A stretch of DNA of 64,000 nt from a virus (IMGVR_UViG_3300029288_000111:37093-101092); one strand, 5' to 3'. Shown: positions 3,017 through 57,772, counted from the first letter of the stretch. The notes: generated by a model from the sequence alone, not told the origin. Numbers and translations are program-made.

Positions 3017-3042
3017 TAACGATCCAAACCGGTCAGCGTTCC
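3017..3042 (-). promoter_or_regulatory. ECF-type promoter GGAAC-N16-CGTTA (leftward)
   Basis: GGAAC gctgaccggtttggat CGTTAGC. Confidence 0.8.
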
Positions 3043-3078
3043 CGGAATCTGCACCCGTTCATCGGAGTCGAGATTCCG

Positions 3079-3104
3079 GGAACGCTCGGCCCCCTCGCGC
3101 GTTA
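3079..3104 (+). promoter_or_regulatory. ECF-type promoter GGAAC-N16-CGTTA (rightward, divergent pair)
   Basis: GGAAC gctcggccccctcgcg CGTTAGC, then GGGAGG RBS and ATG 3126. Confidence 0.8.
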
Positions 3105-3125
3105 GCAGTGGCAGGGAGGAAACGA

Positions 3126-3440
3126 ATGAGCGACGTGGCGAGAGAGTTCCGAAACGCAAGGCGCGTGGATACGGCCAAGGACTCCGCCCTTCTCGGGCCG
3201 CGCGGCCTTCCCGACTACGACCGCATGGCGACCGTGTCGGCGTTCGGGCGCGCGCTGGATTACCTCTGCCAACTGTCGGAAAGCCGGCGGACGGCCCTCG
3301 TCTGCAGCGAGGGCGACCCGATGCAGTGCCACCGGGAGAAGTTGCTGGCCCGCGAGCTACGCGCCCGCGGCGTGGAAGTGCGGCACATCCTGAGGGATGG
3401 GAGCATCGCCCCGCCGCCTGCACAGGGAGCCCTGCTATGA
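3126..3440 (+). CDS. DUF488-like protein (C-terminal half)
   Basis: ALVCSEGDPMQCHR..LL..G.EVRHI motif. Confidence 0.7.
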   Translation: MSDVAREFRNARRVDTAKDSALLGPRGLPDYDRMATVSAFGRALDYLCQLSESRRTALVCSEGDPMQCHREKLLARELRARGVEVRHILRDGSIAPPPAQGALL

Positions 3441-4482: not shown

Positions 4483-4672
4483 GACGCACTCCGTATACCG
4501 CGCCGGCCAGGAGCGCGAGCCACTCAAGGTGGGCGACCGCGTTCGCGTGGAGGGCGTCGTGACTAACATAGGACACTGGAGCGCGGCGATCCGCCTGGAG
4601 ACCGGCGATTTCGTTTTCATATCGCTACCTACCGCCAACCGCCTGCCGAAGATCCAGGAGGTGCAGGAATGA
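4475..4672 (+). CDS. hypothetical protein
   Basis: Translationally coupled ORF. Confidence 0.55.
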   Translation: MSETHSVYRAGQEREPLKVGDRVRVEGVVTNIGHWSAAIRLETGDFVFISLPTANRLPKIQEVQE

Positions 4673-6081
4673 CCACCGCGCAGGAGCGCCGGCATCCACA
4701 CACCCTGGGCAGCGGAGAAGGTCAGCAGGTGAGCTACCAGATCCTTCAGGGTGACTGCTGCGAGGTGCTGGTGGGCCTGCCGGACGGGCACTTCCAGACC
4801 TGCATTACGTCGCCGCCCTACTACAACCTGCGATCCTATAATGCGGGCGACCGCGAGATAGGGCAGGAGAGCACCCCGGAAGCCTATGTGGCGCGCCTGG
4901 TGACCGTGTTCGCCGAAGTGCGTCGGGTGCTGCACGATACCGGGGTACTGTGGGTCAATCTTGGCGATAGCTATGCGAACTGCGGCGGCCCCGAACCGGC
5001 GCTGCCAGCGGGCAACCTCCTTGGCATTCCCTGGCGGTTCGCCTTCGCGATGCAGCAGGACGGGTGGCTCTTGCGTTCGTCTGTGGTGTGGGCTAAGGCG
5101 GTGAGCTATAACCCTGGCTACAGCGGGTCGGTGATGCCCGAATCAGTAAGGGGGTGGATATGGGGACGGTGCCGGGTGAAGGCGGAGGGGCGCCCGTACC
5201 GGCAGCATCAAAGCGTTGCCGGGGAAACGTGGACAGGAGACGTATCGCGCAAGCTGACTGCCACGTACAGTGACTGCCCCGGATGCGAACGCTGCCTTCC
5301 CAACGGCGGCTACGTCCTTCGCCGGGGTTCCTGGCGGCCCACCAGCGCCCACGAGATGGTGTTCATGTTCACGAAGGGTGGTGATTACTTCTGCGACAGC
5401 ACGGCAGTGGCGGAGGTGGGAAGTGGGCGTGTACCAGGAAATGTGAAGCCACAGAAAGGTGTGGGGGATAAAGGATTTGAGATTCGCGGAGGGCTACTCG
5501 CTTCACAGCAGCAGCCACAGATGACCCGCAACCCACGGAACGTGTGGGATATACCCCTAGAAACCGACGTGCTGAAGCTGAGCCCGCGTGGGTCATCGCT
5601 TCCCCACTACGCTTTGTTCCCGCCCGACCTGGTACGCCCGATGATCCGGGCGGCAACCGGCGGCAGAGAACATCCGGGTGTGTGTAGCTCCTGCGGGATG
5701 CCGTGGAGCCCTGTAGTGGAAACACAGCGAGGGTTCCGCGTTGACCGCCCGGCGGTCAACGCGGAACAGACCGGACGTTCTGATGGGTTCACACCACCAC
5801 CTGCTTCCAAGGATATATACCAAAAGCACGTTTCATCCTACCGCCCATCCTGCCCCCACGCCGACGCCCCGGCGCGGCCGGCGCGCGTCCTAGACCCCTT
5901 CTCGGGCATGGGCACCACCTGCCTGGTGGCTATCCAGGAGGGTTGCGACGCCACCGGGATCGAGCTGAACACGGATTACGCCCGCATGTCCGAGGAGCGC
6001 ATAGATCGTGAGGGGGTGATCGGCCCCCGCGCCTACGACCGGCAGCAGGCCGGGCAGTTGCGACTCATGGAGGTAGGCTGA
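4669..6081 (+). CDS. site-specific DNA amino-methyltransferase (N4C/N6A, beta order) with Cys-rich insertions
   Basis: Catalytic TSPPY precedes SAM-binding VLDPFSGMGTT; GIELN; HYALFP. Confidence 0.92.
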   Translation: MTTAQERRHPHTLGSGEGQQVSYQILQGDCCEVLVGLPDGHFQTCITSPPYYNLRSYNAGDREIGQESTPEAYVARLVTVFAEVRRVLHDTGVLWVNLGDSYANCGGPEPALPAGNLLGIPWRFAFAMQQDGWLLRSSVVWAKAVSYNPGYSGSVMPESVRGWIWGRCRVKAEGRPYRQHQSVAGETWTGDVSRKLTATYSDCPGCERCLPNGGYVLRRGSWRPTSAHEMVFMFTKGGDYFCDSTAVAEVGSGRVPGNVKPQKGVGDKGFEIRGGLLASQQQPQMTRNPRNVWDIPLETDVLKLSPRGSSLPHYALFPPDLVRPMIRAATGGREHPGVCSSCGMPWSPVVETQRGFRVDRPAVNAEQTGRSDGFTPPPASKDIYQKHVSSYRPSCPHADAPARPARVLDPFSGMGTTCLVAIQEGCDATGIELNTDYARMSEERIDREGVIGPRAYDRQQAGQLRLMEVG

Positions 6082-6942: not shown

Positions 6943-6979
6943 GCACAAGAGTCAAGATTCCGAGAAAGGGAAAGAAGCG

Positions 6980-19456: not shown

Positions 19457-19482
19457 GGAACGTTTTCCACCCTCGTGCGTTA
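19457..19482 (+). promoter_or_regulatory. ECF-type promoter GGAAC-N16-CGTTA
   Basis: GGAAC gttttccaccctcgtg CGTTAGC. Confidence 0.8.
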
Positions 19483-22842: not shown

Positions 22843-22944
22843 GGCACCCCCCGAATCAGAAGGGGCGCCTCCAACGGCGCCCCGTACATGCGAAAGGCCG
22901 GGTCTAGACCCGGCCTATACTATACTCAGAGTCAAGACTCCAGA

Positions 22945-25855: not shown

Positions 25856-25881
25856 TAACGCTCGATGGCCGCGAGCGTTCC
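25856..25881 (-). promoter_or_regulatory. ECF-type promoter pointing into CRISPR array and iscB
   Basis: GGAAC gctcgcggccatcgag CGTTATC. Confidence 0.8.
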
Positions 25882-26814: not shown

Positions 26815-27741
26815 CTAACGCTCCACTCGCCGAATCGTTCCCGCTCCCTTCGCCCGGGCCACCTTCCGCATCGCCATCGCGAAATCCCACGCCGCCATCG
26901 CCTTGACTTCCTCCTTGGTCCACGTATCGGGGTCCTTGGAGATGCACGCCGGCCGCGGCGGCACCGGCGGCAGCGGCGGCGGCAGCGCCTTTCGCAGGTG
27001 CATCTCCTCGCGGATCTCGGGGAGCTTGCGCAGCAGCAGATCGCGCGCCCGGAACAGCCGAGTGCGCACGGTCGCGGGCGAGACGCCGATCCTCTCGGCT
27101 GCCTCCGACGGCTCCAGCCCCTCCATCCACACCAGCCGTGCCGTCTGGCGGAACGGCTCCGGAAACGCGGAGACGGCCCGCATGATCGCCGTCATCATCT
27201 CACGGCTCACCACGTGCTGCTCGGGGGTCATCCCGGCCGCTGCCAGGATGTCACTCAGCACGCCCCCATCCTCGCCCCCGAGCGGCGCGTCGAGGCTCTC
27301 CAGGGATGGCTGCCGGTTCCGCTGTCTCCCCAAGTCGCGCCATTTGTTCCTCGCAATCGTGAACGTCCACGCGCGGAAGTTCCTCACTTCGGCATCCTCC
27401 TCGCTCTCATCCTCTTTCTGGCTGGCGAGCGGGTCGAACTGCTCCAGCCCGCCCCACGCCGCGGCGAGGGTATCCTGCACCAGGTCGGCGGCATCATCCT
27501 CGCTCAGGCCGTGCTTGCGCGCCCAGCCGAACAGTTCCTGTTCCACCGCCTCATGCCACTCCTCGAACCGCCGCGTGCGCTCCGCGTCGGAGACGTGCCG
27601 CCAGTAGCCCTCGGCACCCGGCTCGCGAGTCCATTGCCCGCCCTCCGCGCTGCCCTTCGGCACGCGCGGCTCCTCACGCCATCCCTTCAACAGCCGCGAC
27701 GCCAGGATGTCACACGCAATCGCCTTCGCCAATCGGCTCAT
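26815..27741 (-). CDS. ECF-type RNA polymerase sigma factor with N- and C-terminal extensions
   Basis: Region 2 DAADLVQDT..F..W.FTIARNKWRD; region 4 FRQTARL..EGL..EAAERIGVSPATVRTRLFRAR. Confidence 0.92.
   Translation of the reverse strand: MSRLAKAIACDILASRLLKGWREEPRVPKGSAEGGQWTREPGAEGYWRHVSDAERTRRFEEWHEAVEQELFGWARKHGLSEDDAADLVQDTLAAAWGGLEQFDPLASQKEDESEEDAEVRNFRAWTFTIARNKWRDLGRQRNRQPSLESLDAPLGGEDGGVLSDILAAAGMTPEQHVVSREMMTAIMRAVSAFPEPFRQTARLVWMEGLEPSEAAERIGVSPATVRTRLFRARDLLLRKLPEIREEMHLRKALPPPLPPVPPRPACISKDPDTWTKEEVKAMAAWDFAMAMRKVARAKGAGTIRRVER
26816..26841 (-). promoter_or_regulatory. ECF-type promoter overlapping the sigma gene stop codon
   Basis: GGAAC gattcggcgagtggag CGTTAGC. Confidence 0.75.
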
Positions 27742-27757: not shown

Positions 27758-27783
27758 TAACGACGAAACGCGCGGAGCGTTCC
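27758..27783 (-). promoter_or_regulatory. ECF-type promoter upstream of the sigma gene
   Basis: GGAAC gctccgcgcgtttcgt CGTTATC, then AGGAG and ATG 27741. Confidence 0.82.
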
Positions 27784-35607: not shown

Positions 35608-35633
35608 TAACGCGCGAAACCTCGATCCGTTCC
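35608..35633 (-). promoter_or_regulatory. ECF-type promoter of methyltransferase (leaderless or very short 5' UTR)
   Basis: GGAAC ggatcgaggtttcgcg CGTTAGC, 6 nt before GTG 35601. Confidence 0.78.
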
Positions 35634-41844: not shown

Positions 41845-43035
41845 TCAGAGAAACGTTGGGTCTATCTCGTGCAGGAACGCAAACCGATCCGGTGCTGCCG
41901 CGAACCTGTGTCCGATAACACCAGCACCGCCCGGGAGGATGACATTGTTCCGGCTCCAGTCATCCCCATCGGCGCCATTGTTCACTAGCAACCAGATGTG
42001 CTCTCGGTCGCCTTCGACCAAGAACTCTTCTCCGGTTCCGTAGATAGTGAATCCGCCGTGGTACTTCACTCGTCGACCATCCGGCAGCGGAACGTTCAAT
42101 GGGTGTTCCGCATCTCCTGGGTTGAAGAGAGACGCCTTGCGCTGGGCGAGCATCTTGTCTGCCGAGTTCCTCTGCTCGACCTCACGCCGAGCCTTCTCAG
42201 CGCGCTCCGTGCAGGCTTTCGTATCGCGGCAGAATACGTGCCACCCAGGTCGAGCACCGAACCCGAGGTGATCGTCCACGTCATCCTCGTCATAGTGAAC
42301 GAGGCTTCCTTCACCCGCTGGCACCATTCTGCCGCATGTAGAACAGTGCTGGGCGCGACGGTTCGTGCGCTTGGGCGCCGCACTTGCCTTCGGTGTTGCT
42401 GCGCGTTGGGGCGTCCTCTGCATCGCCAGCGAGCAATGCCTTCGGACACTCTCCTCAGCCTCAGCGGGGAAGACCCACATTTCGTTCACCGGACTCCACT
42501 GACCACCCAGCGCCCGAGCGCCCGACTCGAACGCAGGGTCCCTCAGTATCCACTTTGCCCCAAGCAACCTCGCTGACACAAGTAGCTTCTTGGACCCACG
42601 ACTGGGGAAACGCCCGAGTTCGAACTCGAACATTTCCTCGGGGTTGTACTGCTTCTTTTCCATCGTCGTTTCCCCTTTCCCTGGAGATAACGACGATTTC
42701 GACGCCGCGTTCCCGGAATCTTCCCTCCCAGCGAAGAGATCCGGCCCCGCTTCCTTGACCTTCTCCCGCTTGGTCATGTCCGGCCGCTTCCCCTTCGCCT
42801 TCTCGGGCTTCTTGTCCTCCACCCAGTAGGTCTGGGTGAAGTGCTCGGTCTTCCCGCCCCGCTTGCGGGTGACGCTCTTGCGCTCCTCGTGCAGCCCCTG
42901 GCGGGGCGCGCTGTGGGGCGTGTCACTCTCGCCGAAGCACAGCCACCGCTGCCCGCCCCGCTCCCGCCGGCCGTACTTCGAGAGCGCCTTCTCCAGCAGG
43001 AGTTTCAACGCGATGCACTTCGCCAGCTTACTCAT
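41845..43035 (-). CDS. leader-module fusion protein A; internal restart at ATG 42663
   Basis: MSKLAKCIALKLLLEKA leader, duplicated module, lower-GC cargo with CSTC; GGAGG RBS. Confidence 0.75.
   Translation of the reverse strand: MSKLAKCIALKLLLEKALSKYGRRERGGQRWLCFGESDTPHSAPRQGLHEERKSVTRKRGGKTEHFTQTYWVEDKKPEKAKGKRPDMTKREKVKEAGPDLFAGREDSGNAASKSSLSPGKGETTMEKKQYNPEEMFEFELGRFPSRGSKKLLVSARLLGAKWILRDPAFESGARALGGQWSPVNEMWVFPAEAEESVRRHCSLAMQRTPQRAATPKASAAPKRTNRRAQHCSTCGRMVPAGEGSLVHYDEDDVDDHLGFGARPGWHVFCRDTKACTERAEKARREVEQRNSADKMLAQRKASLFNPGDAEHPLNVPLPDGRRVKYHGGFTIYGTGEEFLVEGDREHIWLLVNNGADGDDWSRNNVILPGGAGVIGHRFAAAPDRFAFLHEIDPTFL
42688..42713 (-). promoter_or_regulatory. intragenic ECF-type promoter
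   Basis: GGAAC gcggcgtcgaaatcgt CGTTATC, then AAAGGGG RBS and in-frame ATG. Confidence 0.8.
42709..42991 (-). repeat. 283-bp direct repeat, copy A
   Basis: Gapless, high-identity alignment to 48389-48671 (offset 5680). Confidence 0.9.
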
Positions 43036-43088
43036 CTGAACCTCCGCAGGAAAGACATCAGTGGACACGAAATAGAGTCAAGATTCCG

Positions 43089-43114
43089 GGAACGCTCGCG
43101 CGCGGCCGTCGTTA
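43089..43114 (+). promoter_or_regulatory. ECF-type promoter
   Basis: GGAAC gctcgcgcgcggccgt CGTTATC. Confidence 0.82.
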
Positions 43115-43822: not shown

Positions 43823-43853
43823 CACCCCCGGGGGCGCCCCGCACGCCCCCGTT

Positions 43854-46481: not shown

Positions 46482-46536
46482 GGCAGGACCCTCTCTCTCT
46501 CAGGGCGAACTCGGAATCTTGACTCTGGAGAACACC

Positions 46537-47076: not shown

Positions 47077-47084
47077 AGATTCCG

Positions 47085-47110
47085 GGAACGCTCGCGCGCG
47101 GCCGTCGTTA
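47085..47110 (+). promoter_or_regulatory. ECF-type promoter
   Basis: Identical to the 43089 copy across the promoter and into the leader. Confidence 0.82.
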
Positions 47111-47136: not shown

Positions 47137-47475
47137 ATGCCGAGCACGATCGATCTGAAGGACCGGCTGGACACGATGCTCACCGGCGAGCCGAATCCGA
47201 AAGACACCCTCGCCTTGATCAGGGAGATGCTCCCCAACATTGCTTCCAGGATTCCAGCGATGCTGGAGCACGAGGGTGGATCCAACACGGTCTCCGCGCT
47301 CTTGGCGAAGACCCTGGCGAAGACCCCGATGGCGCCCGATGTGCCCGAGGCCGAGAAGGTCGGTTGCACCAACCCGAGCGCGGTGGCCGACTACCTGATC
47401 GTCGCCGCAAGCGACGTGTTCGGCCCGCACATGCGCGCCGTGGCGCTGGCTACCGCCCGGGCCTTCCTCGTCTGA
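47137..47475 (+). CDS. hypothetical protein
   Basis: AAAGGAG RBS after promoter. Confidence 0.75.
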   Translation: MPSTIDLKDRLDTMLTGEPNPKDTLALIREMLPNIASRIPAMLEHEGGSNTVSALLAKTLAKTPMAPDVPEAEKVGCTNPSAVADYLIVAASDVFGPHMRAVALATARAFLV

Positions 47476-47531
47476 TCATCACTTCCGGGGGCGCCCCGCA
47501 CACCCCCGGCGCGTTACCTTCCCACCCATAA

Positions 47532-47578: not shown

Positions 47579-48724
47579 TCAATCCCACTGATGCCGATTC
47601 GCCTTCTCCTCGCGCTCCTTCTTGATCGCAGCAAGAATCTCGGGGTGCTCCGCGTCGAACTGTGCCAGTCGCTCCCTGGCTTCCTCAGCAGCCTCCACAT
47701 GCTTCGCCCGTTCGTGGTATCCCACATCCACGATGCCGCGATCGTGCGCGCGGTTCACGGCATCATCGGCATCATCCATGTGGCCTGACACCTCGGCCGC
47801 CAGCCGCTGCCGCTCCGCGCGAAGCGTATCCAACTTGCCCGATGGAGTCTGCCGCTCCGCCTCGTCGGCTACCCGGATCGCCTCGATGATCGCCTTGGCC
47901 TCTTCGCTCGTCAAACCGATGGCGGGCTTCGTGTGGCTCAGGTAGTGGGTCGTATCCCCAACCCGCTTGTTGAGTTTGGTAGGATCTCCGGTACCAACGT
48001 ACTTGCCGTCCAGATACGCTTGGGCGACGTGCTGACCCGCGTACCGGTGCAGCTTGATCTCGACGGTTCTCCCGTCCTTTCCTGTCTTCTTGATGACCGC
48101 ATTCATCGTCGTTTCCCCTTTCACTGGAGATAACGACGGGGAGGCGCCAGCGTTCCCGGAATACTTCTCTTCGGAAGAAGCCATCCCCGCTGCCTCTCGA
48201 AAGACCTTGAGGAGTTCTTGCGCCAACTCTAAACTCATGCCGTGTCCTGGATACTCCCCTGTGTCAATCCCGAGTTTGACAGTATAGGCATTATCCACGT
48301 TCCAGGCGACGCTATGACCTGCTGCGGCCGTCTTCATTTGCTCCAACAGCCTTGTTTCTTCCTGGTTCAGGCTTCTCTTCTCCCCAGCGTTCCCGGAATC
48401 TTTTCTCTCGCTGAAGAGGTCCGGTCCCTCATCCTTCGCCTTCTCCCGCTTGCCGAAGTCCGGCCGCTTCCCCTTCGCCTTCTCGGGCTTCTTGTCCTCC
48501 ACCCAATACGTCTGGGTGAAGTGCTCGGTCTTGCCGCCCCGCTTGCGGGTGACGCTCTTGCGCTCCTCGTGCAACCCCTGGCGGGGCGCGCCGTGGGGCG
48601 TGTCACTCTCGCCGAAGCGCAGCCACCGCTGCCCGCCCCGCTCCCGCCGACTGTACTTCGAGAGCGCCTTCAGCACTCGCTCGGTGAGGATGTCAAGCGC
48701 AATCGCTTTCGCCAACCTGCTCAT
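47579..48724 (-). CDS. leader-module fusion protein B; internal restart at ATG 48106
   Basis: MSRLAKAIALDILTERVLKA leader, duplicated module, different cargo; GGAGGT RBS. Confidence 0.75.
   Translation of the reverse strand: MSRLAKAIALDILTERVLKALSKYSRRERGGQRWLRFGESDTPHGAPRQGLHEERKSVTRKRGGKTEHFTQTYWVEDKKPEKAKGKRPDFGKREKAKDEGPDLFSERKDSGNAGEKRSLNQEETRLLEQMKTAAAGHSVAWNVDNAYTVKLGIDTGEYPGHGMSLELAQELLKVFREAAGMASSEEKYSGNAGASPSLSPVKGETTMNAVIKKTGKDGRTVEIKLHRYAGQHVAQAYLDGKYVGTGDPTKLNKRVGDTTHYLSHTKPAIGLTSEEAKAIIEAIRVADEAERQTPSGKLDTLRAERQRLAAEVSGHMDDADDAVNRAHDRGIVDVGYHERAKHVEAAEEARERLAQFDAEHPEILAAIKKEREEKANRHQWD
48131..48156 (-). promoter_or_regulatory. intragenic ECF-type promoter
   Basis: GGAAC gctggcgcctccccgt CGTTATC, RBS, in-frame ATG. 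Confidence 0.8.
48389..48671 (-). repeat. 283-bp direct repeat, copy B
   Basis: Aligns to 42709-42991. Confidence 0.9.
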
Positions 48725-49999: not shown

Positions 50000-52900
50000 C
50001 TATGCCGCCCGCCGCATGTGCTGCTGCAGGAGCGCCTCTTCATCCCGCGCGATCCGGTCCGCCAGCCCCGTGTCGTCGAGCAACTCGCTCGCGCGTGTCA
50101 ACATCTCCCGCAACTCCTGCTTCCCCGCCAGGATCTCTCGCCGCCGGTGCTCGTAGGGGGTGTCCGTGGCGAGCGTGTGAACCTCCACATCGTGCTTCTG
50201 CCCCATTCGCAGCACCCGCCCGGTGCGCTGCTTCTGAGTCAGCGCCGTGTAGGGCGTGTCGTACTGGATCACCCGGCTCCCCCGCTGCAGGTTGAGACCC
50301 ACCGCGCCGGCATCCGAGGATACCAGTACGTCATACTCCGCCTCCCCGACGCCCCCGGTCGGCGCGAATCTCTCTTTCGTCTGGTTCCGCTTCCTCGCCC
50401 CGTCCGGGCCTTTGTAGGTCGCAACCCGGTGCCCCGCCGCCTTCAGCGCCCCGGCAATCGCGTCCACCGCTTCCAGTCGGTGCGCGAACACCACCAGCGG
50501 CCGCGCCCGGCTCTCCTCGGGGCTGCCGGCAAGTTCCACCACCTTCTTCAGCTTCGCCGCCTCGGGATGGGTGTTCACCACCCGGTCCAGCGCCGCTTGC
50601 GTCGTCATCCCCAGAGACATCTGCACCCGACGCGCGATCTCCTCGTGCGCCTCTTCCGGCCGCCCCCGGAAGGAGCTGGGCGAGAGCGCCCGGATCGCCT
50701 CGACATCCACCCGCCCCTGCTGCCGCGCCGCCCGTGCCCGCCGGTAGAGCTGCTCCACCCGCGCGTATGCCTCTCGCTCGGCAGGTGACGGCTCCAGCCG
50801 GTGATCCCGCTCCTCGCTCTTCACCCCCGGATCGATGCTCTCGGCGTAGTGGTACGGCGCCATCTCCAGCGCCAGCGCCCGATACGCCGCGTCCGTGCCC
50901 GTCGCATACCGCCGCAGAAACTCCTCGCGGTTCGAGTCGTTGTAGCGGTCCGGGCGGATCTTGGAGAGGAAGTCGAACGCCTCACTGTTGTGATGCCAGA
51001 TGCCCTGCGCCAGATAGTTGTGGTAGACAGGGACCGTCAGATCGTAGACCTCAGCTTCGCCGACCTTGTCAATAATATTGACTTTGTGGTATACTAAGGC
51101 AGCGCTCTCCGAAAGGTGCTCCCATGCGACATAGGATGCGTGACTACGATGCCGAGATACGGCGGATGGCAGCCGAAGGGAAACAGGTCTCCCAGATCGC
51201 CCGCGCGTTGAATATCCCAGCACGCAGCGTCCACGGCTATTGCGAACAGCAGCAGATTGAACACATACGCCAGCGCGGATGCCCCGGGAGCGTCCTTGAT
51301 CCGCATGATTCCCAGATTCGAGCAATGGCTGCCGCAGGTCTGACCCTACGCGAGATGGGAGAAGCCTTCGGAGTGACGGACGGAGCAGTGCGACGATTCT
51401 GCGTGCAACATGGCATCGAGCACTGCCACAAGCGAGGCTGGAGGCCCGGCACACATACCGGACTTGACCATCACTCATGGAAGGGCGGTCGCTATGTATC
51501 TGGTGGCTATGTCTACGTCCTCCGCCCGGAGCACCCAGAATCCGACAGCGATGGTTATGTTCGAGAACACCGGCTCGTCGCTGAGGGGATGTTAGGCCGC
51601 CCCCTTCTCCCATCGGAAGTGGTCCATCACAAGGATGGGAACAAGTCCAACAATGCGCCCGGGAACCTGAGGGTCTATCCATCGAACCGCGAGCACTTCC
51701 TTGATGCACACCCTGGCGAGCCGTGGTCTGAGGAGATTCGCGCCAAGATGATGACCGGCCAGAAACGTGGTCACAAGAAAGGTGTGCCCCACTCAGAAGA
51801 GACGCGCGCGAAGATGAGCGCCGCGAAGAAGGGCAGACCAATGTCTCCTGAAACGAAGGCGAAACTCTCTGCCGCGAAGAAGGGCACGCACCTCTCTCCA
51901 GAAGCGCGGGTTCGCGTTGCAGAAGCTGCTCGGAATCGCGTTGTCTCGGAAGAGACGCGCCAGAAGCGTGCTGCGACGTGGGCGCGCAAGCGAGCAGAGC
52001 GCCTGGGGCAATCTCCCGTAGGTGGCGCCAACCCTCCGGCGTCAGGAACCGATGATTCCCGGCAACCGTGATCTCCGCGCCATTGTCCAGAACGACCCGG
52101 TACATCGGCGCGATACATTTCACGAAGGGTACCGACGCCTGCATCAGCCGCCGCACCCCGGCTGGATCCAGCGTCCATACCCACGGCGCCATGCCCCGCG
52201 CCGTCCACTCTCTCACCGGCATAGCAATCCGGCGCACCGGATCCTCTATGATCGTGTCCGGATGGATGCACCCGTCGTTTCTGATCGGATCGGCGCTCAT
52301 CGAGATATGGTGACTCGTGCCGTCCGTCAGCGCGTCAATGGCGTTCGCCATCTGCGAGCCTTCGGCGCTCCCCCGCCGCAGCAGGTTGTGGCCTTCGTCT
52401 ACCACCGACATCCCGAAATCCCACCCCTTCGCCGCCAACGCCTCCTTCATCGCCCGCTGCCGCTGCCGCCGCGGCGCCGTCTCCAGGTAGCCAATCGCCT
52501 TCTGCCGGTTCCCCCCGAAGCGGTGCTCCGCCAGCGCGTCGATCAGGTCATCCCGGAGCGCCTGGTGCGTCACCACCACCATCCCCAGGTCGGGGTTCGC
52601 GTAGGCCGCCTGCCGCTCCTCGCGCGATGCCCCTGGCTTCGAGTGCCAGGTGATCCCCGCTTCCGGGTCCACAAATCTAATCGCCTCCCCCGAGAACTGG
52701 CCGACCACCCCGCTCGGCACGGCGTAGATCGCCCGCTTCACCTTCCCCTTGGCCCGCTGATCGGTGTAGGCCGCGATGCTCGCCAGCGTCTTGCCGGTTC
52801 CCACGGCCATGCTGTTGCCGATCCGGTGCGCCGCGTCGAACTGACGCAGAAACCGCTGCCGCTTCACCGCATCCCCGGTGGTGAAGTCGGCGTCCGCCGC

Positions 52901-55900
52901 CGGTGCCGGCCGCTCGATGTCGAGGCGGGGCATCATCCCGGCGAGTTCCGCTTCCGCCGCATCCCCGAGGGTCGTCCGGACCATCTCCTGCTGCAGCTCC
53001 TGGCTGCGCCCCTCTTCGCCCCCGAGTTTGAGCTGCTTGCTCTCCTGCGCCGCGGCGATCTCCGCCACCCCGGCCCCGAGGCTCCCTTCGGCGTAGCGCC
53101 CCTGCTTCCGCTCGCGCGCCGGGTCGGCCAGGCTCTGCTGCCTGGCCCGTTCCTTCGCCCGCTGCTCCGCGCTCTGGACGCGCTGCGCGTGCTCCTCGGC
53201 GTAGGTGAGCCGCTTCACCCCCCGCCGCAGCCGCGTGCCGGTCGCCCGCTCCAGGGCCGCCGCGAACTTCCCCGACACCTCCCCGCGCATCTTCTCCAGG
53301 ATGCTCTGGTAGGCCCGGCGCTCTCCTTCCGGCCCCATCGTGAACCCCGAGAGGTAATCCGTCCAGGTCAGGCCGGTCGCTCGCTCCGAGTCGGCGGTGA
53401 CCACCTTGCCCGGGTCGAACTCCCCCGAGACATCCCCGTGCTTCGCCAGCACATCGCCGAAGAGGTTCTGATAGGCCCAGCCCCGCAGCCGCTCCTCGAT
53501 CCGCGCCCGTGCTTCCCGCGCCAGCGCGTCCACGCCCCGGGTTTCTGTCGGGTACAGTTCCGGCGTCAGGGTGCTTCCCGGTTCCCGCGCCATCTCTTCC
53601 AGGCGCGCCGCTTCGGCTCCCAGCCGCGCCGCTTCCTCTCCCTGCGCCCCGGCCGCCTGCCGCCGCAGCCGCGCCGCCTCGAAGGAGACCGCCTCCCGCG
53701 CCACCGGCTGGTATCCCAGTTCCCCGGCGTGCTCCCGCGCCGCCCGCAACACCGCCGCGTCGTCGCTCAGGTCCATCGTGGCGAAGGAGTGCCCCGCCGG
53801 CTTCTCCTCCCCCAGGTCCATCCCGAACATGCCGCCGGAATCGGCCGGCGTCGCCTTCTCGTCGCTCTCGCGCCACTGCTTCTGGATCGCCGCGTAGGCT
53901 TCCCGGCCTTTCCCGAGTCTGGACTCCCACTGCTCCCAAATCGCCCGTTTCGCCCCGGCGTTCTCCCCGGTGAGACCCAGCGGCTCCTGCCCCGCCTCTC
54001 CCACCCGGAAGACGTTCCGGCGTGCCCAGTCGCGCACCGCCTGCCGCCCCTCGCGCCCCAGGTCGCCCACGTCGCCGAAGGCATACTGGAGCGCTGGCTC
54101 GCGCGTCACGATCTGATACGCCAGGTCCCTCGCCTCCTGGCTCCGGGGGATGCTTTGCGCCCCCAGCGGCCCCCCGCCACTCTCCTTCAGCCAGTCGGCA
54201 TGGTAGCCCCGGAAGCGGCGTGCCGTCTCCCGCATGTACTCCTTGGCCGCCTTGCCCCCTTCGGTGCCCCTGGCGGAGTCGGTGTGCAGTGGTGCCACCT
54301 CGGAAAGCGCATCCTCGAACTCGGCGTTCTGGTGCGGCTGCACGCCCGCCTCTGCGCGCACTTGCGGGCTCCACAGCGCGCTCACGATCTGCTCAGGAGA
54401 GTAGCCCACCTCCAGGCGCCGCGCGACGTTCTCCTTCAGGCGCGCGGCCAATTCCTCCTTGCCGTCGAAGGCATCCACCGCCAGCCGGATCTCCTCGGGC
54501 TTCACCCGCTCCGGGTCATACTCGAACGACGGCGGTGCCGGCCGCCGACTGATCCCCTCGGGCAGCCACCCCGGCTCGTCCTGCGTGCCCCGCTGGATGT
54601 CGAGGACCTGCCGCCGCAGCGCCGCTTCCCGCGGGTCCACGTGCAGCCGCGCCGCCAGCTTGTCCATCCCCCTCGCGGTGATCTCCAGGAACTTGTTCGC
54701 CCCGTTGGTGTGGAGGACGTAATCCCCCTCCTGCGCTTCCCGGTAGCCGGTGGGCGAGAACGGGTCCGGCGCCATCACCGACGGCTCGTCGAGGCCCACG
54801 GCGCGCGCCTTCACGATCGCATCCTCGTAAGAGGTCGCCCCGAGGCTGATCTGCAGCCGGTCGCGCGGACTCCCCATCAGCGCCTCGTTCAGCGCCGCCG
54901 CCGCTTCCAGGCGCCCCAGCGCCGTCCCTGCCAGCCGCCGGGCGTCCCTGACCAGCTCCTCGCGCTCGCTGTTCTGGTGCAGCGCCGCGATCAGGCTGAT
55001 CTCGTCGCTCAGAGGGATCAGGTCCGTGTTCTCCGCCGCGTTCATCCGCTCGTGCGCGGCTTCCACGGCCTCCTCGGCCGCCTTCACCTGCCCGGCGATG
55101 TGCGTCTCCCGCAGCGCCCGCGTCGTCGCCTCCAGGCGCACCGGGTCGAGCTGCTGTGCCATCGCCCGCGCCATGACGTTCGCCGTCGCCCACTCGCCCA
55201 GGATGTCCGCGGTCAGCGGGTCCACCCCCGCCCCGCCGAGTGCCACCTGCGCCACCTCGCCGAAGAGGGCGTTGTGCCCGGCCAACCGGTGTTCGCGGAT
55301 CGGCGCCGTCGCCTCCAGGGAGTGAACCGTCTCTACGAGCCCCCGCATCGCCCGCTGCCGCCCCTCTTCGTGCAGGTCCTGCGCCACCTTCCGCAGCGCC
55401 TCCTCGTCGGTTAGGGGTGAGACGCGCAGCACCGCCACCGTCGGCAGCGACCCCACATCCTCGATGCTCTCCATCTCCTTTTCGAGGGTGCGGCTCTCCC
55501 GCTCCAGCGCTTCCAGCTTCTTCGCCGCCTGCGCCAGCGAGATCGCCTGCCCGATATCCATGTTCGCCGCGTCCGTGGGCAGGCCCTCCGCCTTCTCCCG
55601 GATGCCAGCGGCTTCCGCCAGCGCCTTCCGGTCCGCGCGCGATTGCGCCGCCGCCTCCCGCATCGCCGCCAGCGAGGCCAGCGCCGCTTCCGGCTCCTCG
55701 CCCTTCTCCGCCGCTCTCCGCCGCTGGATCTCTTCCTTCTCCCCGGCCAGCAGCTCGGGCGTCACCCCCCGCTCGCGCGCCTTCTCGTCGAGCGCCGCCA
55801 GGTAGCCCTTCCCGGTGTCTCCCATTGTGGAATGGACGAGATCCCCGAGGCCCACGTCCCCCAACTCCCGCCCGGCCAGCTCCTCGTGCGCGTTCAGGAT

Positions 55901-57733
55901 CCGCTCGCTCACCGAGCGCGCCATCTCCCGCACTCTCGAGAGGACGGCATCCTCATGCGCTTGCTCCGTCTGCGCCGCCCGCTTCTCCGAGCGCGCCTGC
56001 GCCCGCTTCTCCACCGTCGCGCGCTGCTTCGCCGTGAGCTGCGCGGCGTCATCGAGGTTCTCCCGCTTCAGCGCCCGCGCGGTCTCCGTCGCCCGCGCCT
56101 GCTCCAGCGCCTGGCTCTTGATCTTCGCCTTCTCGTCGTCGCTCAGGGAGAACTGCTCCGGCTTCCACCCCGCATCCCGCGCGAGCTGCTCCAGGACCTT
56201 CTGCTGCTGCTCCTTCTTCAGGCTCTGCACGTGCGCGATCCGCTCCTGCTTCGCCTGCTCTACCTGCCGGGCCTCGCCCGCCGCCCGCTTCGTCGCTTCG
56301 AGGGAGGCCTCCTCGCCCTTCAGCCCCTCCGTCTTCGCCGCTTCGAGGTGCCGCTCATACCGCTCCTGGTGCTCCTTGTCCTGCGCCTCCCGCCGCTGCT
56401 GGGCCTTCGCCTTCGCTCGCCGCTTCGCCTCCTCGCGGTGTTCCGCCATGGTCCGCACCCCGGTCAGCCGCAGGCCGTTCAGCGCCCCGCCGGCGCCCCC
56501 GATCACCGTGTGCGTGCCGTCGGGGTTTTCCTTGATCAGGACCGGATGCCCCTCCTCGTCATCCCCGTTCGGGTGCACCGTGATCCAGTGTTCCCCGGTG
56601 CCCAGCTTCGAGGGCGCCGCCTTCTTCTCCGGCTGCTGCTCGTCGGCGCCGACCGCCTTGCGGATGTCGGGGTCGCTCGGATCGAAGGTACCTCGGTTGC
56701 CGATGGCCGACTTGATCTGCTCGGGATAGAATACGGCGTAAGTAGTCGCTCCCTGCTCGCGCGCTTCAATGCCATCATACCCGAGTGACTTCAGTTCTAT
56801 AGCAACCCCCGGAAGCCGGAGAATCTCATAGATCGGCATCCTGGTGGATAACGTGTCACGAGCAACACCCACAAACGCAGAGCGACGAGATCGTGCACTT
56901 ACAGCGTACTCATGTGCTCGTATCGCGTCCACCTGCTCCTGCGTTGGAACATGCTCATCCTCTAGCCAACCCAGATTCCAGTCATAAGGACGCCCCTCCA
57001 AGTCCGTGTACCGCATACCGGTCGGAGCGTCTGGCACATATCGAACGCCAACAGCCAATAATGCCCCAACGAGGCGATCCAGTTCCGCTTTTGTGGGGAT
57101 GCGGATGTCACGGTCAAGGACGAAACCCCCCGCCACTGCATTGGCGAGACGCAGACGTGGCACGCTCGTCAGCTCGGCCACCTCTGCAACAGACGCCTCT
57201 TCTTCGATATTCCGCCCGATTCGCAGTGGGCGCTCCACTCGCAGATAGACAGGATACACTCCATGAGCACCACCCTCGCGCCCCACCGCTTCGGAGTATG
57301 TGTCCGCATATCTTGGCGCGTCGGTGAACCATGAGGGACCAAACTGTGTGCGGAACTGAGAGAAGCCAGATCCGGGAGTGCCGTGGTAGACCACCAGCGG
57401 CTTCCCATGCTCGTCCACCACCTTGCTGTCGCCGAACCACCGCTTGAACTCGGGCGTCTCCGTCTGCTCCGGCTTCCTCCCCTTGATCCGCACCCCGAAC
57501 GTCACTTTGCCGCTGGCATGATGGATCGGCACCTTCTCCCGGCGCTGATACGGCTGCTGCGCCTTCAGCAGCGGCTCCACGGGCTGCCCGTGATACCGGA
57601 TCGTATGGCAGAGCGGGCACCACGACGCGCTTCTCCCGCGCCGGCTCCGGTCCTCCCGCACCCACACCCGCAGGCTCGTCTCATCCGAGCACTCGCACTT
57701 CGGGCGCCTGCCTTTGAAGATCGCTCGCAGCAT
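50000..57733 (-). CDS. large polyvalent protein: ART-PolyVal-like domain, helical region, SF2/SNF2-like helicase, with intein
   Basis: FKRWFGDSKVVD..VVYHGT..GYDG..QIKSA.GN.GTF; helicase VGTGKT, DEGH, SADP, GLNLQ, QRTGRVLRMGQ. Confidence 0.88.
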   Translation of the reverse strand: MLRAIFKGRRPKCECSDETSLRVWVREDRSRRGRSASWCPLCHTIRYHGQPVEPLLKAQQPYQRREKVPIHHASGKVTFGVRIKGRKPEQTETPEFKRWFGDSKVVDEHGKPLVVYHGTPGSGFSQFRTQFGPSWFTDAPRYADTYSEAVGREGGAHGVYPVYLRVERPLRIGRNIEEEASVAEVAELTSVPRLRLANAVAGGFVLDRDIRIPTKAELDRLVGALLAVGVRYVPDAPTGMRYTDLEGRPYDWNLGWLEDEHVPTQEQVDAIRAHEYAVSARSRRSAFVGVARDTLSTRMPIYEILRLPGVAIELKSLGYDGIEAREQGATTYAVFYPEQIKSAIGNRGTFDPSDPDIRKAVGADEQQPEKKAAPSKLGTGEHWITVHPNGDDEEGHPVLIKENPDGTHTVIGGAGGALNGLRLTGVRTMAEHREEAKRRAKAKAQQRREAQDKEHQERYERHLEAAKTEGLKGEEASLEATKRAAGEARQVEQAKQERIAHVQSLKKEQQQKVLEQLARDAGWKPEQFSLSDDEKAKIKSQALEQARATETARALKRENLDDAAQLTAKQRATVEKRAQARSEKRAAQTEQAHEDAVLSRVREMARSVSERILNAHEELAGRELGDVGLGDLVHSTMGDTGKGYLAALDEKARERGVTPELLAGEKEEIQRRRAAEKGEEPEAALASLAAMREAAAQSRADRKALAEAAGIREKAEGLPTDAANMDIGQAISLAQAAKKLEALERESRTLEKEMESIEDVGSLPTVAVLRVSPLTDEEALRKVAQDLHEEGRQRAMRGLVETVHSLEATAPIREHRLAGHNALFGEVAQVALGGAGVDPLTADILGEWATANVMARAMAQQLDPVRLEATTRALRETHIAGQVKAAEEAVEAAHERMNAAENTDLIPLSDEISLIAALHQNSEREELVRDARRLAGTALGRLEAAAALNEALMGSPRDRLQISLGATSYEDAIVKARAVGLDEPSVMAPDPFSPTGYREAQEGDYVLHTNGANKFLEITARGMDKLAARLHVDPREAALRRQVLDIQRGTQDEPGWLPEGISRRPAPPSFEYDPERVKPEEIRLAVDAFDGKEELAARLKENVARRLEVGYSPEQIVSALWSPQVRAEAGVQPHQNAEFEDALSEVAPLHTDSARGTEGGKAAKEYMRETARRFRGYHADWLKESGGGPLGAQSIPRSQEARDLAYQIVTREPALQYAFGDVGDLGREGRQAVRDWARRNVFRVGEAGQEPLGLTGENAGAKRAIWEQWESRLGKGREAYAAIQKQWRESDEKATPADSGGMFGMDLGEEKPAGHSFATMDLSDDAAVLRAAREHAGELGYQPVAREAVSFEAARLRRQAAGAQGEEAARLGAEAARLEEMAREPGSTLTPELYPTETRGVDALAREARARIEERLRGWAYQNLFGDVLAKHGDVSGEFDPGKVVTADSERATGLTWTDYLSGFTMGPEGERRAYQSILEKMRGEVSGKFAAALERATGTRLRRGVKRLTYAEEHAQRVQSAEQRAKERARQQSLADPARERKQGRYAEGSLGAGVAEIAAAQESKQLKLGGEEGRSQELQQEMVRTTLGDAAEAELAGMMPRLDIERPAPAADADFTTGDAVKRQRFLRQFDAAHRIGNSMAVGTGKTLASIAAYTDQRAKGKVKRAIYAVPSGVVGQFSGEAIRFVDPEAGITWHSKPGASREERQAAYANPDLGMVVVTHQALRDDLIDALAEHRFGGNRQKAIGYLETAPRRQRQRAMKEALAAKGWDFGMSVVDEGHNLLRRGSAEGSQMANAIDALTDGTSHHISMSADPIRNDGCIHPDTIIEDPVRRIAMPVREWTARGMAPWVWTLDPAGVRRLMQASVPFVKCIAPMYRVVLDNGAEITVAGNHRFLTPEGWRHLREIAPGALLACAPTSQHASGASLPRQRDSEQLLQREPALLERGACPSSRQRVSPSFQETLVCPSSRRSSSRASLLSGAHLSCDHVSGRSSSWRESPQTTARQGVHQGSARGSMDRPSGSRAHCWTCSHPCDGPLPMGEGGGLTSPQRRAGVLEHNHRCRILGAPGGGRRHSHQIHSDRPSMSDGQVRYVCRASSLACGSARCHVARRIVALLRPSLRRLLPSRVGSDLRQPLLESGNHADQGRSRGIRAGVCVQSAAVRNSRGRCVLGYSTRGRSGRPVSLRLPSAVSRHRSHASYVAWEHLSESAALVYHKVNIIDKVGEAEVYDLTVPVYHNYLAQGIWHHNSEAFDFLSKIRPDRYNDSNREEFLRRYATGTDAAYRALALEMAPYHYAESIDPGVKSEERDHRLEPSPAEREAYARVEQLYRRARAARQQGRVDVEAIRALSPSSFRGRPEEAHEEIARRVQMSLGMTTQAALDRVVNTHPEAAKLKKVVELAGSPEESRARPLVVFAHRLEAVDAIAGALKAAGHRVATYKGPDGARKRNQTKERFAPTGGVGEAEYDVLVSSDAGAVGLNLQRGSRVIQYDTPYTALTQKQRTGRVLRMGQKHDVEVHTLATDTPYEHRRREILAGKQELREMLTRASELLDDTGLADRIARDEEALLQQHMRRAA
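51066..51095 (+). promoter_or_regulatory. sigma70-type promoter for the antisense HNH gene
   Basis: TTGTCA-N18-TATACT with extended -10 TG; RBS AAAGGT; ATG 51124. Confidence 0.7.
51124..52071 (+). CDS. HNH homing endonuclease (2x HTH, HNH, NUMOD3-like repeats), antisense inside the intein
   Basis: WKGGR..GY, EHRLVAE..LGR.L..EVVHHKDGNKSNN..NL; HSEETRAKMS/PETKAKLS repeats. Confidence 0.92.
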   Translation: MRHRMRDYDAEIRRMAAEGKQVSQIARALNIPARSVHGYCEQQQIEHIRQRGCPGSVLDPHDSQIRAMAAAGLTLREMGEAFGVTDGAVRRFCVQHGIEHCHKRGWRPGTHTGLDHHSWKGGRYVSGGYVYVLRPEHPESDSDGYVREHRLVAEGMLGRPLLPSEVVHHKDGNKSNNAPGNLRVYPSNREHFLDAHPGEPWSEEIRAKMMTGQKRGHKKGVPHSEETRAKMSAAKKGRPMSPETKAKLSAAKKGTHLSPEARVRVAEAARNRVVSEETRQKRAATWARKRAERLGQSPVGGANPPASGTDDSRQP

Positions 57734-57746
57734 GGTGGAGATTCCT

Positions 57747-57772
57747 GGAACGCTTTGCCCCCTCGCGCGTTA
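57747..57772 (+). promoter_or_regulatory. ECF-type promoter
   Basis: GGAAC gctttgccccctcgcg CGTTAGC. Confidence 0.8.

What the first reader, a model, noticed from the sequence alone, without database searches (positions are those of the whole stretch)
3017..57772. Window-wide ECF-type promoter regulon: 13 copies of GGAAC-N16-CGTTA
Seen: the motif with an invariant 16-nt spacer at 3017(-), 3079(+), 19457(+), 25856(-), 26816(-), 27758(-), 31927(+), 35608(-), 42688(-), 43089(+), 47085(+), 48131(-), 57747(+). Each is followed by an RBS/start codon or the CRISPR array. They head accessory, modification and regulatory genes, never recognisable core structural genes. Two -10 variants occur (CGTTAGC, CGTTATC). 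Known: GGAAC/CGT bipartite motifs are typical of ECF sigma promoters. Inference: this is the early regulon, probably read by the phage's own ECF sigma.
Basis: partly seen in the sequence, partly recalled or inferred. Interest (0 to 1): 0.85.

Follow-up and report, generated by a model that had tools for sequence, protein, structure and literature searches.

The report
Phage ECF-sigma promoter regulon, two classes
A 101-kb temperate phage, probably of an Armatimonadota bacterium, carries 18 near-perfect copies (13 in this window) of a two-part promoter of the stress-sigma (ECF) type plus two ECF sigma genes of its own, so it most likely runs its post-early transcription itself, a familiar phage strategy in an unusually clean example.

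Summary
GGAAC-N16-CGTTA occurs 13 times in the window (0.02 expected) and 18 times in the 101-kb genome. A profile scan finds no weaker copies: the 18 sites score at least 36.6 bits and nothing else exceeds 8. Sites point at an RBS and start codon 12-43 nt downstream (blind gene calls: 11/18 against a 2.5% background), or at the IscB repeat array.

The motif equals the EcfG-type ECF consensus. The phage encodes two ECF paralogs (39% identical), not one:
- The 308-aa gene in the window sits directly behind a site.
- The 236-aa gene outside the window sits in an operon headed by a perfect TTGACA-N17-TATAAT, next to a LexA-like regulator and an integrase.

The regulon is therefore a middle/late tier, not the early one. 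"Never structural" holds only for the first gene after each site: the capsid module lies behind site 42688 with no other recognisable promoter.

The two -10 variants are real covarying classes (10 GCGTTAGCA, 8 TCGTTATCT). Whether each matches one sigma is open.

No relatives or host genome could be examined. The scan has noted comparable phage ECF-type regulons on other DNA. This is a new member of a known kind.

The parts
3017..3042 (-). ECF-type promoter, class A (GATCGTTAGCAG); start codon 22-25 nt downstream of 92-aa gene 2716-2994(-); the operon runs on to the integrase outside the window
3079..3104 (+). ECF-type promoter, class A, back to back with 3017-3042; ATG 21 nt downstream of DUF488-like gene 3126-3440(+), followed by the DNA methyltransferase 4669-6081(+); an inverted repeat (3065-3077) abuts its -35
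19457..19482 (+). ECF-type promoter, class A; GTG 43 nt downstream of 161-aa gene 19526-20011(+); it lies in a divergent junction with the minus-strand gene starting at 19435
25856..25881 (-). ECF-type promoter, class B (GAGCGTTATCTA); reads into six 37-40-nt direct repeats (25448-25823) and then IscB (RRXRR+HNH) 23701-25089(-)
26816..26841 (-). ECF-type promoter, class A, embedded in the last codons of the sigma gene (its TAG stop is the TAG of CGTTAG); GTG 23 nt downstream of 149-aa gene 26343-26792(-)
27758..27783 (-). ECF-type promoter, class B, 16 nt upstream of the ATG of the 308-aa sigma gene
26815..27741 (-). 308-aa ECF-type sigma factor (sigma-2 about 59-135, sigma-4 about 176-240, N- and C-terminal extensions, 14-aa acidic insertion in the -10 specificity loop)
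   Evidence: PMC6411747
31927..31952 (+). ECF-type promoter, class B, member of the ~68-bp promoter+RBS cassette; ATG 25 nt downstream of 82-aa gene 31978-32226(+); a GC-rich palindrome at 32233 follows the gene; an inverted repeat (31913-31925) abuts the -35
35608..35633 (-). ECF-type promoter, class A; ATG only 12 nt downstream (near-leaderless) of the C5 cytosine methyltransferase 34399-35595(-)
42688..42713 (-). ECF-type promoter, class B, lying in frame inside a longer ORF (41845-43035); ATG 24 nt downstream (272-aa product 41845-42663); the same-strand run continues to the major capsid gene 37534-39027(-)
43089..43114 (+). ECF-type promoter, class B, cassette copy; ATG 26 nt downstream of 136-aa gene 43141-43551(+); GC-rich palindrome at 43831; an inverted repeat (43075-43087) abuts the -35
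47085..47110 (+). ECF-type promoter, class B, cassette copy; ATG 26 nt downstream of 112-aa gene 47137-47475(+); GC-rich palindrome at 47488; a one-mismatch copy of the inverted repeat (47071-47083) abuts the -35
48131..48156 (-). ECF-type promoter, class B, in frame inside a longer ORF (47579-48724); ATG 24 nt downstream (175-aa product 47579-48106)
57747..57772 (+). ECF-type promoter, class A; ATG 23 nt downstream of 127-aa gene 57796-58179(+), followed by a LexA-DNA-binding-domain protein (58172-58633) and a ParB-like protein (58635-59528); it lies in a divergent junction with the 2577-aa polyvalent-protein gene starting at 57733

Best explanation
The 13 window sites (18 in the genome) are promoters of the ECF (group 4 sigma) type. 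They are read by host core RNA polymerase carrying one or both of the phage's own two ECF sigma factors. Proposed sequence of events: after infection or induction, host sigma-70-type holoenzyme fires the perfect consensus promoter at genome 34117(-) in the lysogeny-switch region. That operon contains the 236-aa sigma, which opens the GGAAC-N16-CGTTA sites. One of these drives the 308-aa sigma gene, giving a second, self-reinforcing tier. Together the sites drive replication, DNA-modification, IscB/array and small cassette genes directly, and the capsid and tail modules by read-through. Sigma-4 would read GGAAC. The sigma-2 specificity loop would capture the second T of CGTT as the flipped base, which places the TSS about 8 nt after the A of CGTTA. 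Shown: the motif and its statistics, its coupling to gene starts, the two sigma genes and their domains, and the promoter layout. Inferred: sigma dependence, the TSS, the order of events, and read-through.
For: Motif statistics: 13 sites against 0.02 expected, 18 genome-wide, and no weaker copies. The spacer length is fixed while its sequence varies, and the flanks are asymmetric. The sites are directionally coupled to RBS+start codons. The core is identical to the EcfG-type GGAAC-N16-CGTT promoter (PMC7083833) and close to actinobacterial SigE/SigH GGAAC-N17-18-cGTT (PMC10012870). Both sigma genes score above the TIGR02937 cutoff (67.8 and 65.2 bits against 42.9) and carry Sigma70_r2 and r4_2. 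Their best PDB sequence matches are ECF sigmas: CnrH, SigW, Mtb SigH and E. coli sigma-E for the 308-aa protein; Mtb SigH and SigW for the 236-aa protein. The 308-aa protein's recognition helix TVRTRLFRAR matches TVRSRIFRAR of E. coli sigma-E, which binds GGAAC (PMC10012870 citing 2H27). Three of the four Mtb SigH residues that hold the flipped T of GTT (F72, N77, W81) are conserved (PMC6411747). One site lies 16 nt before the 308-aa sigma gene. The three embedded sites whose CGTTAG supplies the stop codon of the upstream gene share only the ~26-30 nt motif, so the constraint is on the DNA, not the protein. Only five sigma-70-like sites exist in 101 kb. Three cluster at 32.4-34.8 kb beside the LexA-domain regulator, the Xis-like HTH protein and the integrase, and the perfect one heads the operon with the 236-aa sigma. 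The analogous layout in phage 7-11 (2 sigma-70 early promoters plus 8 bipartite phage-sigma promoters) is shown experimentally (PMC8948821).
Against: There are no transcript 5' ends and no biochemistry. There is no comparative support: the phage has no close relatives in the collections I could reach. The host genome could not be scanned, so a host ECF sigma with the same specificity is not excluded. Three sites are recent cassette copies. Intrinsic terminators are not enriched, so operon extents and read-through into structural genes are assumptions. Several large minus-strand operons (starting at 19435, 31891 and 57733) have no forward-oriented site of their own.
Confidence: 0.75

Rival explanations
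1. Two-tier cascade with divided specificity: one paralog reads class A sites (GCGTTAGCAG) and the other reads class B sites (TCGTTATCT), giving separate middle and late programmes. This is a refinement of the best explanation rather than a replacement.
For: There are two sigma paralogs at only 39% identity. There are two covarying -10 classes. Class B sites cluster in the capsid and sigma-2 region, while class A sites precede replication, methylase and partition-type genes. Only the 308-aa sigma has a site (class B) upstream of it. SPO1 gp28/gp34 is a precedent for phage sigma cascades (PMC9429907).
Against: The -35 and the CGTT core are the same in both classes. The class-defining bases fall at about -7, -5 and -4, where Mtb SigH makes few sigma contacts (PMC6411747). 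In the EcfG two-paralog system both sigmas read the same promoters with different efficiency (PMC7083833). Part of the class signal comes from shared ancestry of copied cassettes. The specificity-loop residues of the two paralogs are similar (EVRNFRAW against ARRNFRAY).
Confidence: 0.3
2. The sites are read by a host ECF sigma (a stress regulon mimicked by the phage), and the phage sigmas have another role.
For: GGAAC-N16-CGTT is a widespread bacterial ECF consensus (PMC7083833, PMC10012870). The host could not be examined. An earlier scan note on another phage (e1-5346602, not checked here) reached that reading.
Against: The phage encodes two ECF sigmas that would otherwise have no target. 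One is directly preceded by a site. The extended conserved flanks (ATTCCG upstream, GCAG or TCT downstream) are much more specific than a generic ECF consensus.
Confidence: 0.12
3. The motif is a palindromic operator (AACG-N14-CGTT) for a dimeric DNA-binding protein, or a copied repeat with no promoter role.
For: All 18 sites have G after GGAAC, which makes a perfect 4+4 inverted repeat. Three copies are clearly duplicated cassettes.
Against: The flanks are strongly asymmetric. Orientation is coupled to downstream starts at fixed short distances. The half-site spacing of 18 bp is awkward for a dimer. Most copies have unrelated spacers. Cognate sigma genes are present.
Confidence: 0.04

Closest known systems
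Phage 7-11 sigma gp47 and phiEco32 gp36 regulons (PMC8948821)
   Same: A phage-encoded ECF-like sigma binds host core RNAP. In 7-11, eight bipartite promoters with a 16-nt spacer lie before later genes, and only two host sigma-70 early promoters exist. Here there are 18 bipartite sites and five sigma-70-like sites.
   Different: Their motifs are non-canonical (GTAAtg-16-aCTA, or single-element in phiEco32), whereas this one is the canonical AAC/CGT type. Those are virulent enterobacterial podophages with one sigma. This is a temperate 101-kb phage with two paralogous sigmas and two -10 classes. Homology to gp36/gp47 was not tested.
EcfG general-stress promoters and EcfG1/EcfG2 hierarchy in Sphingopyxis granuli (PMC7083833)
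   Same: The promoter core GGAAC-N16-CGTT is identical. There are two paralogous ECF sigmas. One has no ECF-type promoter and controls the other, which is preceded by the motif.
   Different: That is a cellular stress system with NepR/PhyR partners. No such partners were found next to the phage sigma genes, and no EcfG-specific family scored above its cutoff.
Mtb/Corynebacterium SigH-SigE promoters and the SigH open-complex structure (PMC10012870, PMC6411747)
   Same: A GGAAC -35 and a cGTT -10. The T-holding residues F, N and W of the specificity loop are conserved in the phage sigma.
   Different: The spacer is 1-2 nt shorter here. The phage sigmas carry a 14-aa acidic insertion inside the specificity loop, plus terminal extensions.
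SPO1 gp28 / gp34 sigma cascade (as summarised in PMC9429907)
   Same: Successive phage sigma factors for middle and late genes.
   Different: The SPO1 sigmas are not ECF paralogs of each other and read very different promoters. A cascade is not shown here.

Membership tests
ECF (group 4) sigma-70-family sigma factors (protein 26815-27741 and its paralog) | Sigma-2 and sigma-4 domains present | tested here: met
   Pfam Sigma70_r2 and Sigma70_r4_2 score above cutoff in both proteins.
ECF (group 4) sigma-70-family sigma factors (protein 26815-27741 and its paralog) | Scores above the curated cutoff of the sigma70-ECF superfamily model | tested here: met
   TIGR02937 gives 67.8 and 65.2 bits against a cutoff of 42.9.
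ECF (group 4) sigma-70-family sigma factors (protein 26815-27741 and its paralog) | No sigma-3 or sigma-1.1; short linker between sigma-2 and sigma-4 | tested here: met
   No region 3 or region 1 Pfam hits. The alignment to the 187-218-aa ECF structures covers residues 50-243. The N-terminal ~50 aa and C-terminal ~65 aa of the 308-aa protein are unassigned.
ECF (group 4) sigma-70-family sigma factors (protein 26815-27741 and its paralog) | Assignable to a named ECF subfamily or equivalog | tested here: not met
   All subfamily and equivalog NCBIfam models score far below their cutoffs. The best database homolog is only 33% identical.
ECF (group 4) sigma-70-family sigma factors (protein 26815-27741 and its paralog) | Adjacent cognate anti-sigma factor | tested here: inconclusive
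   The neighbouring genes have no Pfam hits, and the genes after the two sigma genes are unrelated to each other. Many ECF groups lack a recognisable anti-sigma factor.
ECF-type promoters | AAC in the -35 and CGT in the -10, separated by 16-17 nt | tested here: met
   18 of 18 sites are GGAAC-N16-CGTTA. Reference consensus from PMC7083833 and PMC10012870.
ECF-type promoters | A site upstream of the sigma gene itself (autoregulation) | tested here: met
   Site 27758-27783 lies 16 nt before the ATG of the 308-aa sigma. The 236-aa paralog has no such site; it lies behind a sigma-70 consensus promoter.
ECF-type promoters | TSS about 7-9 nt after the -10, and dependence on the sigma | not testable with these tools
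   This needs 5'-end RNA mapping and in vitro or reporter assays.
EcfG / general stress response system | NepR/PhyR partner genes and EcfG-family sequence | tested here: not met
   The neighbouring genes have no family hits, and no EcfG-specific model scores above its cutoff. Only the promoter core matches.
Phage sigma-directed temporal regulons (7-11, phiEco32, SPO1) | A phage-encoded sigma, a multi-copy cognate promoter before phage genes, and a few host-sigma early promoters | tested here: met
   Temporal behaviour itself cannot be tested here.

The most novel reading that the evidence does not exclude
The two ECF paralogs form a true two-tier cascade in a temperate phage. The switch-region sigma-70 promoter makes the 236-aa sigma, which opens one -10 class. 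The 308-aa, self-preceded sigma opens the other class. In addition, because every site is an AACG-N14-CGTT quasi-palindrome that reads AAC-N16-CGT on both strands, the sites at the four divergent junctions (19457, 31927, 43089, 57747) would fire in both directions and so also drive the large minus-strand structural operons that have no promoter of their own. The GGARTC-TT-GACTC inverted repeat abutting some -35 elements would gate them.
Probability: 0.2. Interest if true: 0.6.

Novelty: new member of a known kind. Interest (0 to 1): 0.45.

Why it matters
The result gives a complete, testable promoter map for an orphan temperate phage, probably of Armatimonadota, a phylum with very few cultured members. 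One host-type promoter appears to gate 18 phage-sigma promoters, including the one that expresses a phage-borne IscB and its repeat array. The very tight motif, with no degenerate copies, together with two small sigma genes, would make a compact orthogonal transcription switch if the specificity is confirmed. Conceptually it is the known strategy of phage-encoded sigma factors, and the scan has already recorded similar cases on other DNA, so the general surprise is moderate.

Tried and rejected
1. My error: (viral, genome and metagenome contigs) used ATTCCGGGAACGCT-N14-CGTTA, which gives a 17-nt spacer instead of 16. Their 0, 1 and 6 hits (L003-L009) are chance and irrelevant. The correct pattern was run only on viral contigs: 0 hits. 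A relaxed 15-base version gave 23 single hits, none with a strong profile score or a second site.

2. Relatives for phylogenetic footprinting. The sigma has no relative in viral contigs and its best hit in 5.8 billion proteins is 33% identical. The capsid protein is at most 26% identical to deposited phages and has none in viral contigs.

3. Host scan. The genome search draws no relatives for a virus record and needs a genome handle. I had no Armatimonadota handle.

4. Megablast of 20 kb against deposited phages: no match. Rfam and tRNA scans of the window: nothing.

5. Intrinsic terminators are not enriched over shuffles. The conserved GC-rich element after the three cassette genes folds no better than shuffles.

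6. The genes after the two sigma genes are not paralogs. The 93-aa protein that ends in a promoter is not related to the sigma beyond the 8 aa encoded by the promoter.

7. The 430-aa minus-strand ORF after the site at genome 13896 is a shadow ORF (GC by codon position 0.80/0.49/0.65). The real gene there is on the plus strand.

8. A k-mer search for another promoter motif for the structural operons found only the GGARTC-TT-GACTC inverted repeat and the GC-rich palindrome.
Full report
OBSERVATION

Dinucleotide shuffles give 0.02 +/- 0.14.

The window is bases 37093-101092 of a single 101,092-bp contig. The whole genome carries 18 copies. The spacer preference is sharp: GGAAC-N-CGT gives 23 hits at N16 and 2-8 at N14, N15, N17 and N18.

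Aligning the 18 sites gives an extended, asymmetric consensus, aAGATTCCG-GGAACGct-N8-tcg-n-(g/t)-CGTTA-(GCAG|TCT). The middle of the spacer is variable.

A 40-column profile built from the sites scores all 18 at 36.6-50.4 bits. Nothing else in the genome scores above 8 bits, and random sequence of the same composition reaches at most 9. There are no decayed or intermediate copies.

COUPLING TO GENES

Every window site is followed by a start codon at 12-43 nt, an RBS being detected at all but the near-leaderless 35608. The exception is 25856(-), which reads into six 37-40-nt direct repeats and then an RRXRR+HNH (IscB) gene.

I built gene calls from codon-position GC without using the motif. With these, 11 of 18 sites have a same-strand start 8-50 nt downstream, against 2.45% of all oriented positions (p = 5e-14). 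The seven misses each have a specific cause:
- the RNA array at 25856;
- two in-frame internal starts, at 42688 and 48131. The longer ORFs there share an 81%-identical 120-aa N-terminus and run through the promoter;
- a mis-called start of the C5 methylase;
- an endonuclease gene nested in an intein;
- a plus-strand TnpB-like gene inserted after the site at genome 13896;
- a ~290-nt leader after genome 34509.

Three class-A sites lie inside the last codons of the upstream gene, with the TAG of CGTTAG serving as its stop: the 308-aa sigma, the 236-aa sigma, and a 93-aa protein. The three regions share only the ~26-30 nt of the motif. The constraint therefore acts on the DNA element, not on the proteins.

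WHAT THE ELEMENT IS

The genome is a phage, and a temperate one. Evidence:
- major head protein at 37534-39027 (phrog_752, 5e-38);
- neck and tail-completion, endolysin and head proteins;
- a tyrosine integrase at genome 35558-36673 (phrog_1, 3e-80).

It has no close relatives. The capsid protein is at most 26% identical to deposited phages, and megablast finds nothing. Its sliding clamp is 46-51% identical to proteins named from Armatimonadota MAGs, which is a hint of the host phylum.

THE SIGMA FACTORS

The ORF 26815-27741(-) has Sigma70_r2 and Sigma70_r4_2. It scores 67.8 bits on TIGR02937 (cutoff 42.9). Its best PDB sequence matches are ECF sigmas: CnrH, SigW, Mtb SigH and E. coli sigma-E.

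It is also an ECF-type sigma (65.2 bits) and is 39% identical to the first. Neither reaches any subfamily cutoff. The best homolog among 5.8 billion proteins is 33% identical.

The recognition helix of the 308-aa protein (TVRTRLFRAR) is almost that of E. coli sigma-E (TVRSRIFRAR), whose sigma-4 was crystallised on GGAAC DNA (2H27, as cited in PMC10012870).

In the Mtb SigH open complex, the second T of GTT (T-9) is flipped into the specificity loop and held by F72, T76, N77 and W81 (PMC6411747). The phage protein aligns F, R, N and W at these positions. It carries a 14-residue acidic insertion between the equivalents of R73 and H74, inside that loop. The paralog has the same insertion.

By the SigH numbering, the A of CGTTA is at -8, so the TSS is predicted 8 nt after it. 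That would give a 5-nt leader for the methylase gene at 35595 and a 9-nt leader for the sigma gene.

THE PROMOTER TYPE

GGAAC-N16-CGTT is the experimentally defined EcfG general-stress promoter (PMC7083833). Actinobacterial SigE/SigH promoters are GGAAC-N17-18-cGTT (PMC10012870). In core sequence and geometry the phage motif is a canonical ECF promoter.

TEMPORAL POSITION

A genome-wide scan for TTGACA-N16-18-TATAAT with at most two mismatches finds only five sites. Random sequence of the same composition gives 0-2 per genome, about 0.5 on average. The five are:
- genome 34117(-), perfect 12/12;
- genome 32483(+), perfect 12/12, antisense inside the 236-aa sigma gene;
- genome 34795(+);
- genome 21667(-), upstream of a tRNA-Ile;
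- window 51066(+), in an intein.

The perfect minus-strand promoter at 34117 heads an operon containing two small genes, a 312-aa gene, the 236-aa sigma, a DnaC-like loader and the clamp. The plus-strand promoter at 34795 precedes an 84-aa LexA-DNA-binding-domain protein and an HTH_17 (excisionase-like) protein, next to the integrase. This has the layout of a lysogeny switch.

The ECF-type sites are therefore most likely the tier that follows the host-transcribed early operon, not the early regulon. Phage 7-11 has the same architecture, shown experimentally: two sigma-70 early promoters and eight bipartite promoters read by its own sigma (PMC8948821).

WHAT THE SITES DRIVE

The genes directly after the window sites are:
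- small unknown proteins;
- a DUF488-like protein followed by a methyltransferase;
- a C5 methylase;
- the sigma;
- the IscB array;
- a LexA-domain/ParB-like group.

Outside the window, one site directly precedes the sliding-clamp gene.

The window has no other recognisable promoter apart from the intein-borne site at 51066(+) noted above: sigma-70-like hits are at or below chance, and terminators are not enriched. Site 42688(-) lies 3.6 kb upstream of the capsid gene in an unbroken same-strand run. Sites 27758, 26816 and 25856 lie upstream of the run of large minus-strand genes. So "never core structural genes" is true only of the first gene after each site.

TWO CLASSES

Ten sites read (G)CGTTAGCA and eight read (T)CGTTATCT. 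The base before CGTTA covaries with the base after it (9:1 against 1:7, p = 0.003).

Class B includes the sigma promoter, the array promoter, the site before the capsid module, and three plus-strand cassettes. Those three (31927, 43089, 47085) share a ~68-bp block running from about -45 to the ATG, spacer included, in front of unrelated genes. A conserved GC-rich palindrome lies just after the first gene at 31927 and 47085, and after a further weakly called 39-aa ORF at 43089. It does not fold better than shuffles.

Whether each class belongs to one sigma is open, for three reasons:
- the class-defining bases fall at about -7 to -4, where SigH makes few sigma contacts (PMC6411747);
- in the EcfG two-paralog system both sigmas use the same promoters (PMC7083833);
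- part of the class signal comes from shared ancestry of copied cassettes.

UNEXPLAINED

All 18 sites have G after GGAAC. The core is therefore AACG-N14-CGTT, which reads AAC-N16-CGT on both strands. At four divergent junctions, the minus-strand gene start lies 13-53 nt beyond the reversed site. Three of those four minus-strand genes (starts at 19435, 31891 and 57733) have no forward-oriented site of their own.

A second motif, the inverted repeat GGARTC-TT-GACTC, occurs 10 times in the window against 0.14 expected. It abuts the -35 of sites 3079, 31927, 43089 and 47085. The AGATTCC extension found upstream of many sites is one of its half-sites.

LIMITS

- My first three collection scans used a wrong spacer and are void.
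- The correct motif was run only on viral contigs and found nothing.
- The host could not be scanned.
- No comparative or transcript evidence supports the reading. Sigma dependence is inferred.

VERDICT

It is best read as the cognate promoter set of two phage-encoded ECF sigmas, acting after a host-sigma early operon. This is a clean new member of the known class of phage sigma regulons. The scan has noted comparable cases on other DNA.

Noticed in passing
L002:12483-12511 (+), genome 32483-32511, outside the window: A perfect TTGACA-N17-TATAAT promoter lies antisense inside the 5' part of the 236-aa sigma gene. It could damp the sigma cascade in lysogens, by analogy (from memory) with lambda's antisense PaQ promoter in gene Q.
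   Followed up: no
window 3065-3077, 6949-6961, 13521-13533, 22929-22941, 31913-31925, 43075-43087, 45639-45651, 46513-46525, 47071-47083, 311-323: The inverted repeat GGARTC-TT-GACTC occurs 10 times against 0.14 expected, with more copies outside the window. It lies mostly at gene boundaries and abuts the -35 of four ECF-type promoters. It contains two GANTC sites. It is a candidate operator for a dimeric regulator; the two LexA-domain proteins are candidates.
   Followed up: partly
window 32233-32242, 43831-43840, 47488-47497: A conserved CCGGGGGCGCCCCGC(A/C)...CCCCC element lies shortly downstream of the three class-B plus-strand cassettes (directly after the first gene at 32233 and 47488; after a further weakly called 39-aa ORF at 43831). 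With the shared promoter cassette this gives moron-like promoter-gene-hairpin units. The folding energy is not better than shuffles and there is no T-tract.
   Followed up: partly
window 41845-43035 (-) and 47579-48724 (-): Two long ORFs share an 81%-identical 120-aa N-terminal module and stay open in frame through an ECF-type promoter into unrelated C-terminal parts. Each locus may therefore make a long fusion protein and a short promoter-internal product. The promoter DNA is translated as DSGNA...
   Followed up: partly
window 19435, 31891, 43035, 57733 (minus-strand gene starts): Large minus-strand genes or operons start 13-53 nt beyond the reverse side of a plus-oriented site. At three of them (19435, 31891, 57733) no minus-oriented site lies nearby; at 43035 the nearest is the internal site 42688. 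The quasi-palindromic core (AACG-N14-CGTT) would allow bidirectional use.
   Followed up: partly
L001:12683-13765 (+), genome coordinates, outside the window: A 360-aa plus-strand gene with a TnpB-like N-terminus (my reading of the translation; no family search was run) lies between the class-A site at genome 13896(-) and the minus-strand operon it would drive, as if an insertion element landed behind the promoter.
   Followed up: no
L002:14858-15322 (+) and L002:15558-16673 (-), outside the window: A lysogeny module: an 84-aa protein with only a LexA DNA-binding domain, an HTH_17 (excisionase-like) protein and a tyrosine integrase, beside the cluster of sigma-70 consensus promoters.
   Followed up: partly
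window 50000-57733 (-): A 2577-aa polyvalent protein with an ART-PolyVal domain, helicase domains and an intein. A second polyvalent protein of about 2465 aa lies at genome 846-8243.
   Followed up: no
window 26815-27741 (-), residues about 100-117: A 14-residue acidic insertion (PLASQKEDESEEDA) lies inside the sigma-2 specificity loop that holds the flipped -10 base in Mtb SigH. The paralog has it too (PMC6411747).
   Followed up: partly
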